From Malacoraja senta (lineage: Eukaryota), in NCBI GenBank assembly GCA_038087875.1, contig CM075995.1:7008001-7072000 (forward strand): DNA of 64,000 bases. The letters run 5' to 3'. Position numbers and translations under genes: made by a program. Positions 11,351 to 56,772 of the stretch are shown here, in pieces (position 1 is the stretch's first letter; the number at the start of each line of letters is the position of its first letter). Under the pieces are notes generated by a model that was not told where the DNA came from, ran no database searches, and saw only the letters and a program-made list of their open reading frames with translations.

Positions 11351-14300
11351 TCAAGTCAAGTCAAGTCACTTTTATTTATATAGCACATTTAAAAAACAAC
11401 TCGTTGACCAAAGTGCTTAACGTTGGTATGAGAATAGTACCAATGTAAACCACTTTATCGGTATCGGAAAATGGCGGCGCACCTGAATGCAGCGGCTTTG
11501 CTCTCCCCCCGTGTGGATGTTGTTGTTTCTGTCTGTTTTGTCCGTTTGTCTGTGGACCTGCGACTCGAAATACAACCGGCAGGATCTTTTAAGGATTGGG
11601 ATGCGGTGTAGCGAACTAGAGATCGTGAGAAGCTCGCACAACGATTCTATCCCGCCAGAAATCACCCGCCCAGCGGAGTCCGAGTGGATCACCATACCGA
11701 ACGGACGGTGCGGGAGGCGGCGCAGACGGAGGCAGCAGAAGCGCGGTTGTCGAGCCGGCATTCACGCTAGGCTAAAGGAAGCTCCTTACAGACCGGCGCT
11801 ACCCAGCATTTCTTTGACGAACGCCCGACCGCTCAGCAGCAAGATGGACGAGCTGGAGCTGATCAATGAAGAAAATACAACTGTGCAAACCTGCTCGATT
11901 ATGGTGGTAACCGAGACCTGGCTTCACGCTGGGATCCCGGGTGAGGCCATTAGTCTGGTAGGTCGCACAGCACACCGGGCCGACAGGAGCAGTGACAGTA
12001 AGACCAGAGGAGGGGGGCTATGTATTTACTCTTATGACAAATGGTGCACAAATGTAAACGTTGTCGAGAGACATTGTTCACCAGACATACAGTTCATCAC
12101 ATTGAAATGCCGACCCTTCTATCTGCCGCGGGAGTTCACAGCTGTCGTTATTCTGGCTGTTTATATTCCACCAAGCATTAACGTCAAGCTAGCACTGAAC
12201 ACCCAGCTAGCATCAATCAACAAACTACAGACTGCGCACCCTGATGGGATTTTCATCGCGGCTGGAGACTTCAACCAGGCTAATCTAAAAACTGTCCTCC
12301 CTAAATTCCACCAGCAGGTCACGTGTCCGACGAGAGGTCAAAATACACTGGATCACGTATACAGCAACATCAAGGATGGATACAAAGCCTCCTCTCTCCC
12401 TCACCTCGGCCAGTCTGACCATCTATCACTCTTTCTCACCCCGGCATACAGACCTCTCATTATGAGAACTAATCCCAGCGTGAGAAACATAAAGACTTGG
12501 CCCGAGGGCGCTGCCGCCCAACTTCAGGACTGTTTTGAGCGCACCCAGTGGGATCTTTTTGTAAACCAGGACATACAAGAATACACATCCACAGTCATGT
12601 TCTATATACAGAACTGTATCAACAACGTCACTGTCGACAGGGAGGTCAGGTGCTATCCAAACAACAAACCATGGATGACCAGGGATGTCAGGAAGTTGCT
12701 GAGGGAACGCAACTCAGCCTTTAGATCTGGCAGTGATGAACTGTACAGCACTGCCAGATCTAAACTAAAGAGAGTCATTAAAGAGGCAAAGACAGCCTAT
12801 GGAAGAAGGTTAGAGGGGCATTTTAACGAGAGGGACCCTCGGCGTGTCTGGCAGGGCATTCAGCAACTTACCAACTACAAGGGCAAGGGGGGGGGGCGAC
12901 CATCAGCAGCAGTAACAACTCGCTAGCTGAGGAGCTCAACCACTTTTTCGCCCGTTTTGAGCTGAATGAGGCGGAGCCTGCACCTGCAGCCGCACCCGGC
13001 ACTGACGACCCGGCACTCACTGTGAGTACGGAGGATGTCAGAAGAGCACTCCGCAGGGTCAACCCCAGGAAGGCTGCTGGCCCAGATGGCATCCCTGGGA
13101 GAGTATTGCGGGACTGTGCAGACCAGTTAGCGGAGGTTCTTAGCGACATCTTTAACCTCTCTCTGTCAACGTGCACTGTCCCTAAATGCTTCAAGACTGC
13201 TACTATCGTGCCTGTACCCAAACAAACATCCATTACCTGCCTGAATGACTACAGACCTGTTGCTCTCACTTCAACTGTGATGAAGTGTTTTGAACGGCTG
13301 GTCCTGGCCCACATTAAGTCCTCACTCCCATCCACCCTGGATCAGCATCAGTTTGCATACAGAGCAAATAGGTCAACGGAAGATGCCATCAACATAGCTC
13401 TACATTCCGCACTGACACATCTGGAGCGCCCTGGCTCATATGCGAGGATGTTATTTGTAGACTTTAGTTCTGCATTTAATACCATCATCCCCAGCAGAAT
13501 GGTGGACAAACTGTCTGATCTGGGTGTCAATGCAAACACATGCAGATGGATTAAGGACTTCTTAACAGACCGCCCACAGCCTGTCAGGATGGGGTCCAAT
13601 TACTCCCCAGTCCTGACGCTCAGCACAGGAGCGCCACAAGGTTGTGTGCTGAGTCCCATCTTGTATACAATATACACTTATGACTGCACACCGACACACA
13701 GTACAAACAGGATCATCAAGTTTGCGGACGACACGACTGTGGTGGGACTGATACACAACAACGACGAGTCTGCCTACAGAGATGAAGTCCAAAAACTGAC
13801 TGTCTGGTGTACCAAAAACAACCTGGTACTCAACCCATCAAAGACAAAAGAACTGGTCGTTGACTTCAGGAGGAAGAGGAGAGAGGAACCTGCTCCTCTA
13901 TACATCAAAGGAGACATGGTGGAGAGAGTCACTGGCTTTAAATTCCTGGGAATAAACATCTCCCAGGACCTCAAATGGCAAATGAACACCGTCACTCTCG
14001 TGAAGACGTCACAGCAGCGGCTGTATTTCCTGAGGTCTCTGCGGAGAGCAAACGTCTCACAGCCGCTGCTGCTGTCCTTCTACCGATGCGCCGTGGAAAG
14101 TATCCTCTCCTATAGCATCCTGGTGTGGTTTGCTAGCTGCACTGTGGCTGAGAGGAGGGTGCTGCAGAGAGTTATAAAAACTGCACAGAGCATCACAAAC
14201 GCTCAACTGCCCTCCTTGGATGATATATATATAGGGCCCGATGCTTGCGCCGGGACACAAACATCAAGCAGGACACATCCCACCCTGCCAACCACCTTTT

Positions 14301-14778
14301 CACTCTGCTACCCTCTGGGAGGCGATTCGGGTCTCTGAAGGCTCGCACCGGTAGACTATAAAATAGTTTCTACCCATGTGCGATAAAATAACTTAATTCC
14401 AACAGACAACACTGGGGAAGCAAAATGTAATTCCAAGAAATGCAACATTCTTTTAAAATTCTTTTTAAATACTTATTTATTATTTTTACTAATAAGTGTA
14501 CATATGTGTCAATGGTTGTCGTGCTTGTATTTTTTTAACCGGAGGAGATGCAATGGAATTTCGTTGCACAGTATTGTGCAATGACAATAAACGTATTCAT
14601 TCATTCATTCATTCAGTATAACAAACAACAGTGGTTCATGGATTAAATACAAACATCACTACGTACATATAGTCCTTGCTCAGAGGACGTCAAGAAAGGC
14701 TTGGGAGTAGAGATGAGTTTTAAGTCTCGACTTAAAGGAATCGATGGAGGGGGCAATTCTGATGGGAAGAGGGATGCA
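11351..14778 (-). mobile_element. L2-clade LINE 3' fragment (11351-11439 + 14615-14778) split by the Rex1 insertion
   Basis: Minus strand encodes SIDSFKSRLKTHLYSQAF; tail agcactttggtcaac..aaatgtgctatataaataaa..(TTGAC)n. Confidence 0.75.
11440..14614 (+). mobile_element. Near full-length Rex1/Babar-clade LINE (single ORF: APE endonuclease + reverse transcriptase), frameshifted
   Basis: ORF 11487..12926 has APE motifs (VTETWL, GGGLCIY, AGDFN, LDHVY, SDH). ORF 13022..14338 has RT motifs ([42 protein letters not shown]). AATAAA plus (CATT)n tail; possible AGTA TSD. Confidence 0.92.
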
Positions 14779-31650: not shown

Positions 31651-31674
31651 CTTATCGAGTTCATACATAATACC
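31651..31674 (-). CDS. RIPOR2: RIPOR2-like 24-nt microexon (GIMYELDK)
   Basis: ttttcttcacag acceptor, AAG|gtgggt donor; fills the G-x-x-Y-x-L-D-K segment between flanking exons. Confidence 0.9.
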
Positions 31675-31757
31675 CTGTGAAGAAAAGACATGAGTATTAC
31701 TTGAAAATCAATAACAAACTGCAGAAGCTAGAAATAAAAACAGAAAATGCTCAAATT

Positions 31758-31895
31758 TCTTCTTCTTCTTCTTGCGTGCACAGCCTAAAGTTGTAGGACA
31801 ACTTGGTCTATTTGATCTTATTTGATTGTGCTCGCCGGGTTGGTTGCATTCGTCGAAACAGGGCGGACCACATGAAGGTTGCAATCTCCCACCCC
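31758..31895 (-). mobile_element. Second copy of the HDV-like-ribozyme-headed short retroelement
   Basis: Flanked by direct repeat CTCAAATT (31750-31757 / 31896-31903); (GAA)n tail. Confidence 0.8.
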
Positions 31896-34141
31896 CTCAA
31901 ATTACTTCAAATTACTCAAATACAAAAAGGGTTCCGAGAAGATTTACGAGGATGTTGCCAGGACTTGAGGGTCTGAGCTATAGGGAGAGGTTGATGCACA
32001 CAGTCTCTTGCCCAGACAATGAGAATCGAGGACCAGAGGGCATAGGTTTAAGGTGAAGGGGAAGAGATTTAATAGGAATCTGAGGGATAACTTTTTTACA
32101 CAAGGCGTGGTGGGTGTATGGAACGAGCTGCCAGAGGAGGTAGTTGAGGCTGGGACTATCCCAACGTTTAAGAAACAGTTAGACAGGTACATGGATAGGA
32201 CAGGTTTGGAGGGATATGGGCCAACAGCAGGCAGGAAATGTAGTTCCTGGATTGTGCTGATCTCAGGCAGTCAGTTTGGGCAAGGTGGGCCGAAGGGCCT
32301 GTTTCCACACTGTATGAGACACAATAATGTCATCCATTTTGTTAAGGCGAGTGAGTGTGGGTTGCGTGGAGAGAAATCGCACAAAGGGTGGTGGGCGTAC
32401 CGAACGAGCTGCCAGAGGGGGTGGTTGAGTCGGGGACTATCCCAACGTTTCAGAAACAGTTAGCCAGGTAGGTGGATAGGACCGGTTTGGAGAGTTATGG
32501 GCCAAACGCGGGGCAGGTGGGGCATGTTGGGTGTGGACAAGTTGGGCCGAAGGGTGATTACGCGCGAGGGTGATTTTCATTTTTACCGATACCAATTAAC
32601 CTACAATACATGCACGTGTGGGAGGAAACCGATGATCTGGGACTGTCATATGCTGAGAGAATGGAGCGGATGGGCTTGTATAGCTCAGGCTCTCAAGTCC
32701 TGGCAATATTCCCACAAATCCTCTCTGCACTCTCTCCATCTTATCTGCGTCCTTTCTATAGCAGGGTGGCACAACACTCCAAATGCAGCCTCGCCAACTT
32801 CTTGTGTAACTGTAACATAACAGAAGTCTGAAGAAGGGTCTCGACTTCGGGTTTGTATACTCTGGAGTTTAGAAGGATGAGAGGTTATCTTAATGAAACA
32901 TATAAGATTATTAAGGGTTTGGACACGCTAAAGGCAGGAAACATGTTCCCGATGTTGGGGGATTCCAGAACCAGGGGCCACAGTTTAAGAATAAGGGGTA
33001 AGCCATTTAGAACGGAGACGAGGAAACATTTTTTCTCACAGAGAGTGGTGAGTCTGTGGAATTATCTGCCTCGGAGGGCGGTGGAGGCTGGTTCTCTGGA
33101 CGCTTTCAAGAGAGAGCTAGATAGAGCTCTTAATGGTAGCAGTCAGGGGATATGGGGAAAAGGCAGGAACGGGGTACTGATTGGGGATGATCAGCCATAA
33201 TCACATTGAATGATGGTGCTGGCTCCAAGGGCCAAATGTCCTACTCCTGCGCCTATTGTCTATTGTCTATTGTCTTGCAGACGGCACCCGAGGTCAGGAT
33301 CGAACCCGGGTCTCTGGCGCTGTAATGGCAGCAACTCTAACGCTGCGCCACCGTGCCGCCGATGTGTTCGAAGCAGATACTTTAGTAGCATTTAAGAGAC
33401 TTTTGGATAGCTGCATGGAAATGAAGGGAATGAAGGGATCATGGGTTATGTTTAGGCAGCTAAGTGTCAGTCTTGGCATCATGTTCGGCACAGAGGTTGT
33501 GGGACGATTCTTGTGTCCTATCCTTGTGCTGTACTGTTCTACATTCAATGTGCTACATTCCAGGAAGACACAAACAAAATTGCTGGAGTAACTCAGCGGG
33601 TCAGGCAGCATCTCTGGAGAGAAGGAATGGGTGACGTTTCGGGTCGAGACCGTCAGACTGAGAGTCAGGGGAGAGGAGAAGGGAGAGGTATAGATAGCGA
33701 TATAGGGAGATGTAGAACATCCTCGCAGGTCACGGGAGAATGTACAGTCAGCGCCCGTGGTCGGGATCGAACCCGGGAATAAGGAGTAAGCCATTAAGAA
33801 CGGAGACGAGGAAACACTTTTTCTCACAGGTGGTGAGTCTGTGAATTCTCTGCCTCAGAGGGCGGTGGAGGCCCGGTTCTCTGGATGCTTTCAAGAGAGA
33901 GCTAGATAGGGCTCTTAAAGTTAGCGGAGTCAGGGGATATGGGGAGAAGGCAGGACGGGGTACTGATTGGGGATGATCAACCATGATCACATTGAATGGT
34001 GGTGCTGGCTCGAAGTTGCCGAATGGCCTACTCCTGCACCTATTGTCTATTGTCTATTGTCTATTGTCTCCAGCGCCGTAAGGCAGCAAATCTACCGCTG
34101 CGTCACCGTGCCCGCCAGCGTTTTACCTGGACCTCACTCAC

Positions 34142-38700: not shown

Positions 38701-39315
38701 CATGTTTCCTGCCTCCACGTGTCCAAGCCCTTAACAATCTTATATGTTTCAATGAGATCCCCTCTCATCCTTCTAAACTCCAGAGTGTACAAGCCCAGCT
38801 GCTCCATTCTCTCAGCATATGACAGTCCCGCCATCCCGGGAATTAACCTTGTATACATGTGACAATAAACTAAACTATATTAAAATAAACAAGTCTAAAC
38901 AAAACTAAACTAAATGAAACCAAACAAAATTAAGCCTGAAACAAAACAAAAATGAAAACTAGTCTGAAACTAAACGCAAAAAAAAAGTTTTCGCTGTACC
39001 TCAGTAAACATCATAGTAAACTGAACTAAACTAAACCTGAAACTTCAAAACATACAAACTCCGTACAGACAGCACCCATAGTCAGGATCGAACCGGGGTC
39101 TCTGGCGTCCTGAGGCAGCTACTCTAGCGCTGCGCCACCGTGTCTGTGTGTGTAAAGAGGCTCCACGATCTGAGAGTTGCTGCCTTACAGCGCTGGCAGC
39201 GCCGGAGCCCCGGGTTCGATCCCGACGGCAGGTAAATAGTTTGTACGTTCTCCCCTTCAGGCTATTGGGAGAAGGCGGGAGAATGGGGTTGAGAAGGAAA
39301 GATAGATCAGAGGTA

Positions 39316-39452
39316 GGGGTGGAGGATTGCAACCTTCACGTGGCCCGCCCTGTTTCGACTAATGCAATCAACTCGACGTGCACAAACGGAAGATCACATA
39401 GAACAAGTTGTCCAACAACTTTAGGCTGTGCGCGCCATACGCAAGAATAAGA
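39316..39452 (+). mobile_element. Short non-autonomous retroelement headed by an HDV/CPEB3-like ribozyme fold, (GAA)n-like tail
   Basis: Flanked by direct repeat AGATCAGAGGTA (39304-39315 / 39453-39464); 5' 54 nt fold as a nested double pseudoknot; second copy at 31758-31895. Confidence 0.8.
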
Positions 39453-39689
39453 AGATCAGAGGTAGACAAAAAATGCTGGAGAAACTCAGCGGGTGAGGCA
39501 GCATCTATGGAGAGAAGGAAAGGGATAGGCTTTTTTCGAAACTCTCTTCAGCCATGATTGAATGGCCGAGTGGACTAGATCGGCCAAATGGCCTCATTCT
39601 GCTCCGAGACGATATGACCTCCTGCGTTTTCCTGGGGTGCTCCGGTTTCCTCCCACGCTCCAAAGACATGCGGGTTCAAAGAATCATAG

Positions 39690-55306: not shown

Positions 55307-55613
55307 TTACGGTTAGCCTCTAGATAGTCACGTGGCAGCCCAGACAGCATCTTTCCTCTTCAGCCACAGCCAGTGACGGCTCCGTTCGGCGGCATTGGCA
55401 AGTTTCTTTTATTGCCCTCCTTTGTGCCTGCCCTCTGACTCCTACTTCCCTCAGGGGCCTTGCGGTGGAACTGGCTACAAAGCCCCTGCACCCCACCTCC
55501 ACTGGACACACCCTTACCCTCCAACCTCTCTCCTCTGCCTCTGCTGCACGGTTTGAATATCGAAGCTTATTTCCCTTTCACAAGCCCAACCTTGGTCATG
55601 AAATTGCTCATGA

Positions 55614-55813
55614 NNNNNNNNNNNNNNNNNNNNNNNNNNNNNNNNNNNNNNNNNNNNNNNNNNNNNNNNNNNNNNNNNNNNNNNNNNNNNNNNNNNNNNN
55701 NNNNNNNNNNNNNNNNNNNNNNNNNNNNNNNNNNNNNNNNNNNNNNNNNNNNNNNNNNNNNNNNNNNNNNNNNNNNNNNNNNNNNNNNNNNNNNNNNNNN
55801 NNNNNNNNNNNNN
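55614..55813. other. Assembly gap (200 N)
   Basis: Run of N of fixed size; typical scaffolding placeholder, true size unknown. Confidence 0.99.
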
Positions 55814-56772
55814 CGACAAGAAGAGTGTCACGGTGGCGCAGCAGCAGAGTTGCTGCCTTACAGCGAATGCAGCGCCGGAGACCCGGGTTCCATCCCGACT
55901 ACGGGGTACTGTCTGGACGGAGTTTGTACGTTCTCCCCTTGACCTGCGTGGGTGGGTTTTCTCTGAGATCTTCGGTTTCCTCCCACACTCCAAAGATGTA
56001 CGGGTTTGTAGGTACATCGGCTTGGTAAAAATGTAAAAATTGTCCCTAGTGGATGTAGGATAGTGTTGATATGCGGGGATCGCTGGTCGGTGTGGACTCA
56101 GTGGGCCGAAGGGCCTGTTTCCACTTTGTATCTCTAAACTAAAAAAACTAAACTAAACTAAATGTAATTGCGCGGGGATGCCAGCATGTTTGAGCTCCAT
56201 TGCTGGACCTTATCTGTGCTGAACTAGAGGTGGGCCCATTCACTATAGGATTCACTGATATCTTGTTGAAGGGCCTGTTTCCGCGCTGCATCTCTAAGCT
56301 CTAAGTGTAGCTTTAAGGTGAGATGGGCAAAATGTAACCGAGATGTAAGGGGCAAGTTTTTAAGTTCATAAGTAATAGGAGTAGAATTAGGCCATTCGGC
56401 CCATCAAGTCTACTCCGCCATTCAATCATGGCTTATCAATCTTTCCCTCTTAACCCCATTCTCCTGCCTTCTCCCCATAACCCCTGATACCCGTACTAAT
56501 CAAGAATCTTATCTATCTCCGCCTTAAAAATATCAAGTGACTTGGCCTCCTCCGCACTCTGCAGCTTTTCACTGTACCTCGGTATGTGTGACAATAATCT
56601 ACACTGTCTCCCCATGCCGATAATGTCAACACTAATGCTCTCTCTCTCTCCCTCTCCAATGCCTTACGAATTATTCTGCTTCAAATATTCACCTAGTTGT
56701 TTCTCAAAGAACCAATGGCCCAGTAATCAACCTTCCAAGTGGAAGAACATAGAATATGGATCAGTACAGCAC

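What the first reader, a model, noticed from the sequence alone, without database searches (positions are those of the whole stretch)
39304..39464. A ~138-nt SINE-like retroelement that begins exactly at G1 of a minimal CPEB3/HDV-like ribozyme
Seen: two copies (39316-39452 + and 31758-31895 -), each with its own target-site duplication (AGATCAGAGGTA; CTCAAATT) and a GAA-type tail, with no tRNA A/B boxes and no ORF. The first 54 nt parse into the HDV fold: P1 GGGGTGG/CCGCCCT (7 bp, G1-U wobble), 2-nt J1/2, P2 GATTGCA/TGCAATC, P3 ACC/GGT, L3 TTCACGT, GT after P1 (P1.1), a vestigial P4 (TTCGA), and J4/2 CTAA or CGAA holding the putative catalytic C. Each copy has private defects: a P3 A-C mismatch here, and a P2 mismatch plus CpG-decayed L3 in the other. 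Their consensus is fully paired. In both copies the TSD ends immediately before G1, the HDV cleavage position. Established: L3 UUCACGU, P1 followed by GU, and J4/2 CGAA are features of the mammalian CPEB3 ribozyme, and HDV-like ribozymes process the 5' ends of R2, some RTE and trypanosome L1Tc/ingi elements. Inference: this is a promoterless parasite that excises its 5' end from read-through host transcripts by self-cleavage and borrows a LINE RT. The CCATACGCAAGAAG end recalls ingi/Vingi termini (from memory). An almost P4-less CPEB3-like ribozyme mobile in a vertebrate genome would also bear on the origin of the CPEB3 ribozyme.
Basis: partly seen in the sequence, partly recalled or inferred. 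Interest (0 to 1): 0.88.

Follow-up and report, generated by a model that had tools for sequence, protein, structure and literature searches.

The report
Ribozyme-headed mini-copy of Vingi retrotransposon
This 137-base repeat is a shrunken, protein-less copy of a long jumping gene of the Vingi type, and it keeps that gene's front end, which folds like a very small self-cutting RNA; the design is known from parasites and flies but appears not to have been described for this clade.

Summary
Observation confirmed. Both copies and their target-site duplications are real and belong to a dispersed family (4,298 exact head matches, 7,520 tail matches genome-wide). It is not a free-standing SINE: it is nt 1-79 plus the last ~45 nt of a 3.1-kb single-ORF LINE (endonuclease + reverse transcriptase, no RNase H; Vingi architecture) found in the same genome, which spawned at least three independent ~135-nt deletion derivatives, all keeping the head. 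The 54-nt head fits an HDV-like nested pseudoknot lacking P4. Three other Vingi-type families in this genome and three from metagenomes start with different sequences in the same fold (110 of 112 pairs kept, two-sided changes at 12 of 16 positions; hand-parsed). Cleavage is untested, and 'promoterless' is unsupported (L1Tc has ribozyme and promoter in one head). The architecture is known (NARTc, RIME, R2 SIDE). New, as far as searches reach: ribozymes across Vingi, a P4-less one mobile in a vertebrate genome, and a CPEB3-like core. The scan's earlier notes held nothing related.

The parts
39304..39315 (+). left target-site duplication of copy A (12 nt), ends immediately before G1
39316..39452 (+). 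copy A, full-length 137-nt non-autonomous element, subfamily A; antisense in an intron of a RIPOR/FAM65 gene
39316..39369 (+). predicted 54-nt HDV-like ribozyme: P1 39316-22/39345-51, P2 39325-31/39363-69, P3 39332-34/39342-44 (A-C mismatch in this copy), L3 39335-41, P1.1 partner 39352-53, 5-nt loop in place of P4 39354-58, J4/2 39359-62
   Evidence: sequence; family parse; Rfam sub-threshold match on a sister copy
39359..39359 (+). putative catalytic C (nt 44 of the element), first base of J4/2
   Evidence: C at this position in 7 of 7 families parsed; role inferred from HDV-like ribozymes (PMC10879173 passages)
39370..39394 (+). rest of the parent LINE's 5' end (to nt 79)
39395..39407 (+). 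13-nt junction, partly a tandem repeat of the preceding bases; not found in the LINE
   Evidence: comparison by eye
39408..39452 (+). parent LINE's 3' end (last codons, stop codon at 39422-39424, 3' UTR) and AAG-repeat tail
39453..39464 (+). right target-site duplication of copy A
31896..31903 (-). 5' target-site duplication of copy B (8 nt)
31758..31895 (-). copy B, subfamily B, sense in the same gene, ending 83 nt upstream of a candidate 24-nt exon (31651-31674); head 31842-31895, putative catalytic C at 31852
31750..31757 (-). 3' target-site duplication of copy B

Best explanation
The element is a short internally deleted, non-autonomous derivative of a Vingi-type LINE (here V1). SHOWN: it consists of V1's first 79 nt and last ~45 nt; V1 is a dispersed ~3.1-kb single-ORF element with APE endonuclease, RT and a C-terminal Cys/His motif and no RNase H; copies carry ~11-nt duplications and an AAG tail, and begin at G1. 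SHOWN BY COMPARISON: the head fold (P1, P2, P3, P1.1, J4/2 C) is kept by compensatory change across unrelated Vingi-type families. INFERRED: when any transcript runs through a copy, the head folds as an HDV-like nested pseudoknot and cuts 5' of G1, giving a defined 5'-OH end and shedding upstream host RNA; the 3' ~45 nt is bound by V1 protein supplied in trans, which nicks target DNA and reverse-transcribes the 137-nt RNA to its end (target-primed reverse transcription), so most copies are full length and can be re-expressed. In the parent LINE the same head probably also serves cap-independent translation, since the first in-frame ATG lies inside it. The family looks mostly quiescent: pattern-chosen copies are 3-4% from their subfamily majority and every V1 copy read is broken.
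For: Bipartite origin: tail-chosen loci L091 and L117 are 5'-truncated LINE ends sharing the tail; walking upstream gave L185 with the same head; Pfam PF14529 + PF00078, no RNase H family on 4 segments; nearest proteins ~1,000 aa with the same two domains on 3.1-3.5-kb contigs. Independent derivatives: 111 heads with LINE-type continuation; of 20 fetched, 11 are nt 1-96 fused to the tail, 3 are nt 1-91 fused to the tail, 5 are one further junction in a duplicated segment, 1 is interrupted. 5' ends; loose ends pile up at G1 in 4 of 4 public runs laid, from 4 coded organisms; 25 of 30 tail-chosen loci carry the head; no 5' transduction above control among 22 copies without an exact duplication (2 hits vs 4 of 76). 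Fold: 110 of 112 pairs kept over 7 families, two-sided change at 12 of 16 positions including the single P1.1 pair (C-G to U-A in V4); only the true pairing of 5,040 strand permutations reaches this; own-genome families alone 63 of 64. A strict descriptor hit once in 77 metagenome loci (307,775 nt, both strands), 56 nt upstream of a Vingi-type ORF, and nowhere in the window. Rfam's best match at each head tested is an HDV-class ribozyme (6 of 6). The three head positions that differ between subfamilies (J1/2, a U-G to U-A pair in P1, second base of J4/2) are all compatible with the fold. Precedent with cleavage shown: L1Tc/NARTc, SIDERs, R2 SIDE.
Against: All Rfam scores are below gathering (23.9 vs 35 bits for V1). 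The helix boundaries were set by hand (three rows were mis-set and corrected), on 7 families, so the count leans to the model. Of 18 metagenome loci reaching the ORF start, only 1 passed even a relaxed descriptor; the others were read by eye, were decayed, truncated or more distant elements. P4 is replaced by 5 nt and P1.1 has one Watson-Crick pair, so V1 may be slow; single-strand folding gives no support (z -0.04 to 0.73; it cannot model pseudoknots). Only 12 of 25 tail-chosen copies keep a perfect core and both window copies fail the strict descriptor. A fixed 5' end is equally expected from an internal promoter. No intact V1 was found (40 or 150 best candidates scored per search). No labelled Vingi reference was available for a tree.
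Confidence: 0.8

Rival explanations
1. Same bipartite origin, but the 5' end is made by an internal RNA polymerase II promoter in the head (as Pr77 in L1Tc); the P4-less V1 fold is a weak or dead relic of the clade's ribozyme. The two functions can also coexist.
For: L1Tc's first 77 nt are promoter and ribozyme at once; bipartite LINEs are thought to be pol II transcripts driven from the 5' extreme (PMC5786205 section 23); some trypanosomatid heads with adequate folding did not cleave; V1 has lost P4.
Against: A DNA promoter does not need compensatory pairs; V1 keeps every core pair and the J4/2 C, and subfamily changes respect the fold; natural P4-less HDV-like ribozymes cleave (PMC10879173 passages).
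Confidence: 0.13
2. The fold is kept for a non-catalytic job (binding of the LINE protein, protection of the 5' end, or translation initiation), not for cutting.
For: First in-frame ATG lies inside the fold in V1, V2 and V4; R2 heads bind protein, aid translation and protect the 5' end (PMC6765202, PMC13708176 passages).
Against: The short element has no protein to translate yet keeps the core; the invariant J4/2 C and G1 pair sit exactly at the element's 5' boundary, as cleavage predicts.
Confidence: 0.05
3. One reading: an independent SINE-like parasite with its own captured ribozyme that borrows an unrelated LINE's RT.
For: Short derivatives outnumber the LINE greatly (25 vs 2 of 30 tail-chosen loci); no intact V1 was found, and younger families V2 and V3 (97-98% identical copies) could in principle have mobilised late copies.
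Against: The head is 88-94% identical to V1's own 5' end and the tail is V1's 3' end; several separate deletion junctions exist; short copies and V1 copies are of similar divergence.
Confidence: 0.02

Closest known systems
NARTc (from L1Tc) and RIME (from ingi), and SIDERs, of trypanosomatids (PMC3185411, PMC4035085; passages read)
   Same: Short non-coding element = 5' head + 3' end of an APE-type LINE of the Ingi group; head is an HDV-like ribozyme starting at +1 with a single-pair P1.1; dispersed; cleavage shown for NARTc and several SIDERs.
   Different: Sister clade (Vingi, no RNase H); animal host; 137 nt; 54-nt head without P4 against 77 nt with P4; AAG tail instead of poly(A); promoter and cleavage untested here.
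R2 SIDE and R2/R1 SIDE of Drosophila (PMC3414825; abstract and outline seen)
   Same: Internal deletion joining a 5' ribozyme to a LINE 3' end, spread by the parent's reverse transcriptase.
   Different: R2 is a site-specific element of rDNA with a restriction-like endonuclease and its SIDEs are rare; this family is dispersed, in thousands of copies.
Non-autonomous Vingi derivatives such as those of hedgehog Vingi-1_EE (Kojima 2011, not held; known through PMC5786205 passages and section 23)
   Same: Bipartite internal-deletion derivative of a Vingi LINE.
   Different: No ribozyme was attributed to Vingi there: six clades are listed as having one (R1, R2, R4, RTE, Ingi, LOA).
Mammalian CPEB3 ribozyme, Rfam RF00622
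   Same: Best Rfam match for V1, V2 and two metagenome heads; same 38-nt spacing from G1 to P1.1, same L3 in V1 and L347, same GU after P1; 22, 28 and 26 of 38 positions identical to the Rfam consensus for V1, V2 and L347 (counted by eye).
   Different: 15.8-25.2 bits against a gathering score of 35; CPEB3 is single-copy, has P4 and is fixed in one intron; V3 and V4 heads match other HDV models better.
Minimal HDV-like and theta ribozymes (PMC10879173; passages read)
   Same: HDV fold lacking P4, catalytic C first in J4/2.
   Different: Those were ~99% confined to gut phages and tied to tRNA ends; this one heads a retroelement in an animal genome and arose by P4 loss within Vingi, since V2-V4 keep P4.

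Membership tests
Bipartite non-autonomous LINE (SIDE/NARTc type) | 5' end and 3' end both taken from one autonomous LINE, ORF deleted | tested here: met
Bipartite non-autonomous LINE (SIDE/NARTc type) | marks of target-primed reverse transcription (duplication, simple tail, dispersal) | tested here: met
   76 of 98 copies vs 58 of 1,000 controls
Bipartite non-autonomous LINE (SIDE/NARTc type) | mobilised in trans by the parent's protein | not testable with these tools
   inferred from the shared 3' end; no intact V1 found
Vingi clade (parent LINE V1) | single compact ORF with APE endonuclease and RT | tested here: met
   on a broken copy read in three frames; intact relatives ~1,000 aa; definition from PMC13708176 passage
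Vingi clade (parent LINE V1) | no RNase H domain (separates it from Ingi) | tested here: met
   no RNase H family on 4 segments at E<=0.1; none among the Pfam lists of the 120 relatives shown
Vingi clade (parent LINE V1) | RT groups with named Vingi elements in a tree | not testable with these tools
   no relative carried a clade name; Repbase and Dfam not available
HDV-like ribozymes | 7-bp P1 opened by G1, P2, 3-bp P3, L3, P1.1 in nested double pseudoknot | tested here: met
   (hand-set parse, covariation across 7 families)
HDV-like ribozymes | catalytic C at first position of J4/2 | tested here: met
   7 of 7 families
HDV-like ribozymes | cleavage site G1 coincides with the element's 5' end | tested here: met
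HDV-like ribozymes | Mg2+-dependent self-cleavage lost in the C-to-U mutant | not testable with these tools
   needs a bench assay
Rfam RF00622 CPEB3 ribozyme | score at or above gathering (35 bits) | tested here: not met
   23.9 bits on an intact sister copy; nothing at gathering in the window
SINE in the strict sense | head derived from tRNA, 5S, 7SL or snRNA with pol III promoter | tested here: not met
   head is the LINE's 5' end; no tRNA; no such Rfam match

The most novel reading that the evidence does not exclude
HDV-like ribozymes are a clade-wide part of Vingi 5' ends, in a subtype with the CPEB3 spacing, L3 and single-pair P1.1, and the mammalian CPEB3 ribozyme is the surviving head of an ancient Vingi insertion (Vingi traces exist in the human genome, X12_LINE, PMC5753468 passage). 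The element described here would then be a living-scale model of how such ribozymes are scattered through vertebrate introns, thousands at a time, including the smallest natural version in an animal. Against it: the core is short and functionally constrained, so likeness may be convergent, and R2/RTE/Ingi heads were not compared here.
Probability: 0.25. Interest if true: 0.8.

Novelty: new variant of a known kind. Interest (0 to 1): 0.52.

Why it matters
Kojima 2018 lists four clades that throw off bipartite non-autonomous LINEs (RTE, Ingi, Vingi, R2), notes that three of them have 5' ribozymes, and leaves open whether the link is real or sampling bias. A ribozyme in Vingi makes it four of four and suggests why: a head that defines its own 5' end survives deletion of everything else. 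Vingi-1 UTRs are being used in RNA gene-writing platforms and the 2026 review attributes a ribozyme only to R2, so a self-cleaving Vingi 5' UTR bears on template design. The 54-nt P4-less head, with thousands of natural variants, is a ready test set for minimal HDV catalysis and for whether intronic copies cut host pre-mRNA (copy B lies in sense just upstream of an exon). It also gives a testable origin for the CPEB3 ribozyme. None of this is categorically new biology.

Tried and rejected
Rfam at gathering score over the window: nothing. Single-strand folding: no excess stability, uninformative for a pseudoknot. Earlier scan notes: four unrelated phage notes by sequence and none by place. I first read the V3 head as twister-like; Rfam and further copies showed it is HDV-like and that I had mis-set its 5' end. 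I first took subfamily A as much younger than V1 and in need of another driver; its near-identical copies were chosen as best hits, and the 3 pattern-chosen A copies are 3.4% diverged like the rest, so this was dropped. Search for 5' transductions: none above control. Public runs cannot show expression or RNA ends because all are contigs and RNA status is mostly guessed. Cluster members gave no clade names. Scripts and the last part of 90 had errors, corrected in 38, 85 and 92. Heads in L273 (long insertion in L3), L320, L322 and L327 (decayed kin of L347) were left out of the pair count. Literature: Vingi+ribozyme gave 6 papers, Vingi+HDV 2, Vingi+retrotransposon 37 (listing only); none seen attributes a ribozyme to Vingi or describes this family; searches added background or nothing. 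Kojima 2011, Ruminski 2011 and Webb 2009 are not held; they, their supplements, patents, Repbase and Dfam could already hold the family or the Vingi ribozyme.

Full report
Observation. The two copies, their duplications and the helix parse are in the window as described. The window is a repeat-rich piece (about 46 kb masked) of a 1.94-Gb animal genome and covers introns and exons of a RIPOR/FAM65 gene on the minus strand (PF15903 on 5 of 5 candidate exons tested, 2 above the curated cut-off). That the host is a skate or ray is my recollection from the flanking repeats, not a tool result. Copy A is antisense to the gene, copy B sense.

The family. Exact patterns give 4,298 head and 7,520 tail matches, 0 in controls; allowing for 3-4% decay I estimate about 10,000 copies (inference). 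Of 30 loci picked only by the tail, 25 have the head, 2 are LINE ends, 2 are tail only and 1 is rearranged. Exact duplications of 7-20 nt (median 11) flank 76 of 98 distinct copies against 58 of 1,000 controls, and 64 of 76 end within -1..+2 of G1; most of the other 22 show duplications with a mismatch on inspection and no 5' transduction above control. Four subfamilies appear, 2.9-4.0% diverged in pattern-chosen copies. Twenty-three public runs from 13 studies and 9 coded organisms hold the sequence; in the 4 laid, heterogeneous loose ends pile up just before G1 (446, 74, 67 and 8 contigs). These are contigs and say nothing on expression.

The parent. Loci L091 and L117 share the tail but continue upstream into a reading frame ending in a Cys/His motif. 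Walking upstream reached L185, about 3.05 kb, which begins with the same head, 8 nt short, and carries one broken ORF with PF14529 and PF00078 and no RNase H. Its nearest proteins are ~1,000-aa endonuclease-RT proteins on 3.1-3.5-kb contigs. This is the Vingi architecture as defined in PMC13708176 (passages); no named reference was available for a tree. The short element is V1 nt 1-79, a 13-nt junction and V1's last ~45 nt. Other junctions exist: among 20 of 111 heads with LINE-type continuation, 11 fuse nt 1-96 to the tail, 3 fuse nt 1-91, 5 are one further junction inside a duplicated segment, 1 is interrupted. Repeated survival of head plus tail at ~135 nt says these two pieces are what transposition needs. 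All V1 copies read are broken and 82-97% alike.

The ribozyme. Copies of one young family cannot show covariation, so I used other families. A protein search found three more Vingi-type families in the genome, 46-54% identical to V1 in the RT. Their 5' ends differ in sequence but parse into the same fold with P4 present, as do heads upstream of Vingi-type ORFs in metagenome contigs. Over 7 families and 16 pair positions, 110 of 112 cells pair, 12 positions show two-sided change, including the single P1.1 pair, and the J4/2 C is invariant; only the true assignment of 5,040 strand permutations reaches this. The parse was set by hand and corrected once, and only 1 of 18 metagenome 5' regions passed a relaxed descriptor, the rest being read by eye or lacking a head. 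The strict descriptor is specific: 1 hit in 77 loci, at the expected place, 0 in the window. Rfam's top match at all 6 heads tested is an HDV-class model, always below gathering. Twelve of 25 tail-chosen copies keep a perfect core; the two window copies do not. Folding energies add nothing.

Mechanism. Shown: bipartite origin, retrotransposition marks, 5' end at G1, conserved fold. Inferred: self-cleavage frees the element from read-through RNA and V1 protein copies it in trans (0.8). A promoter in the same head is not excluded and has precedent (PMC3185411, passages). In V1, V2 and V4 the first in-frame ATG lies inside the fold, in line with the translation role proposed for such heads (PMC6765202, passages).

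Comparison. The design equals NARTc, RIME and SIDERs (PMC3185411, PMC4035085; passages) and R2 SIDEs (PMC3414825; abstract). Bipartite Vingi derivatives are known, but Vingi is not among the six clades credited with a ribozyme (PMC5786205; passages and section 23; PMC4494074 passages), and a 2026 review mentions ribozymes only for R2 (all 6 places read). HDV-like ribozymes in a vertebrate (lamprey) are known (PMC8256844 passages); P4-less ones were reported almost only from phages (PMC10879173 passages). A 2026 ribozyme survey has no mention of Vingi, skate or shark (passages). Searches behind the claim of absence. Three key papers were not held, and no supplement, patent, Repbase or Dfam entry was seen; any of them could remove the novelty.

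Verdict. Real, well explained, a new variant of a known kind. Interest 0.52. The boldest reading left open, descent of the CPEB3 ribozyme from a Vingi head, I put at 0.25.

Noticed in passing
V1 LINE loci L124-L246 (for example L188, L207, L213): Head-containing V1 copies are mostly 5'-inverted (twin-priming pattern): 19 of 29 rows (two colinear rows are duplicates; the set was chosen for having a head). The inverted piece usually runs to within ~10 nt of G1 and is often joined across a 1-2.8-kb deletion.
   Followed up: partly
window 4375-40599, minus strand: Exons of a RIPOR/FAM65 gene (PF15903); copy B lies in sense 83 nt upstream of a candidate 24-nt exon at 31651-31674, an arrangement like the intronic CPEB3 ribozyme, though this copy's core is damaged.
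   Followed up: partly
L253-L272, L370-L387: Three further Vingi-type families (V2, V3, V4), copies 95-99% alike with open frames up to 986 aa, each with its own HDV-like head and its own tail; whether they have short derivatives was not checked.
   Followed up: partly
L256 and L258, head nt 9: In V2 the ORF starts at an ATG at nt 9 and reads through the whole predicted ribozyme.
   Followed up: no
position -1 of 98 short copies: T precedes G1 in 52 of 98 copies, with A enriched at -2 (37 of 98); it is usually part of the duplication, suggesting a weak target preference, and T also precedes many V2-V4 heads.
   Followed up: no
window 39376-39383 and 39427-39434: The LINE-derived 5' part and 3' UTR carry complementary 8-nt stretches that pair in predicted folds of an intact copy, and the junction creates a 7-bp hairpin at about 39405-39421; function untested.
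   Followed up: no
L273:420-570: A metagenome Vingi-type head appears to have the HDV fold with a long insertion in L3 (read by eye).
   Followed up: no
protein P0002: An unnamed 1,019-aa protein is 72% identical to V1 while the genome's other families are 46-54%; host unknown, possibly a sign of horizontal transfer or simply a related fish.
   Followed up: no
L350-L352, L364, L365; L353 and L358: Single insertions seen many times with identical flanks on different contigs, i.e. inside amplified or duplicated segments; such copies inflate pattern counts slightly.
   Followed up: no
window 11487-14338 (+) and 55600-55820: A nearly complete two-frame endonuclease-RT LINE of another clade, and a run of N.
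   Followed up: no
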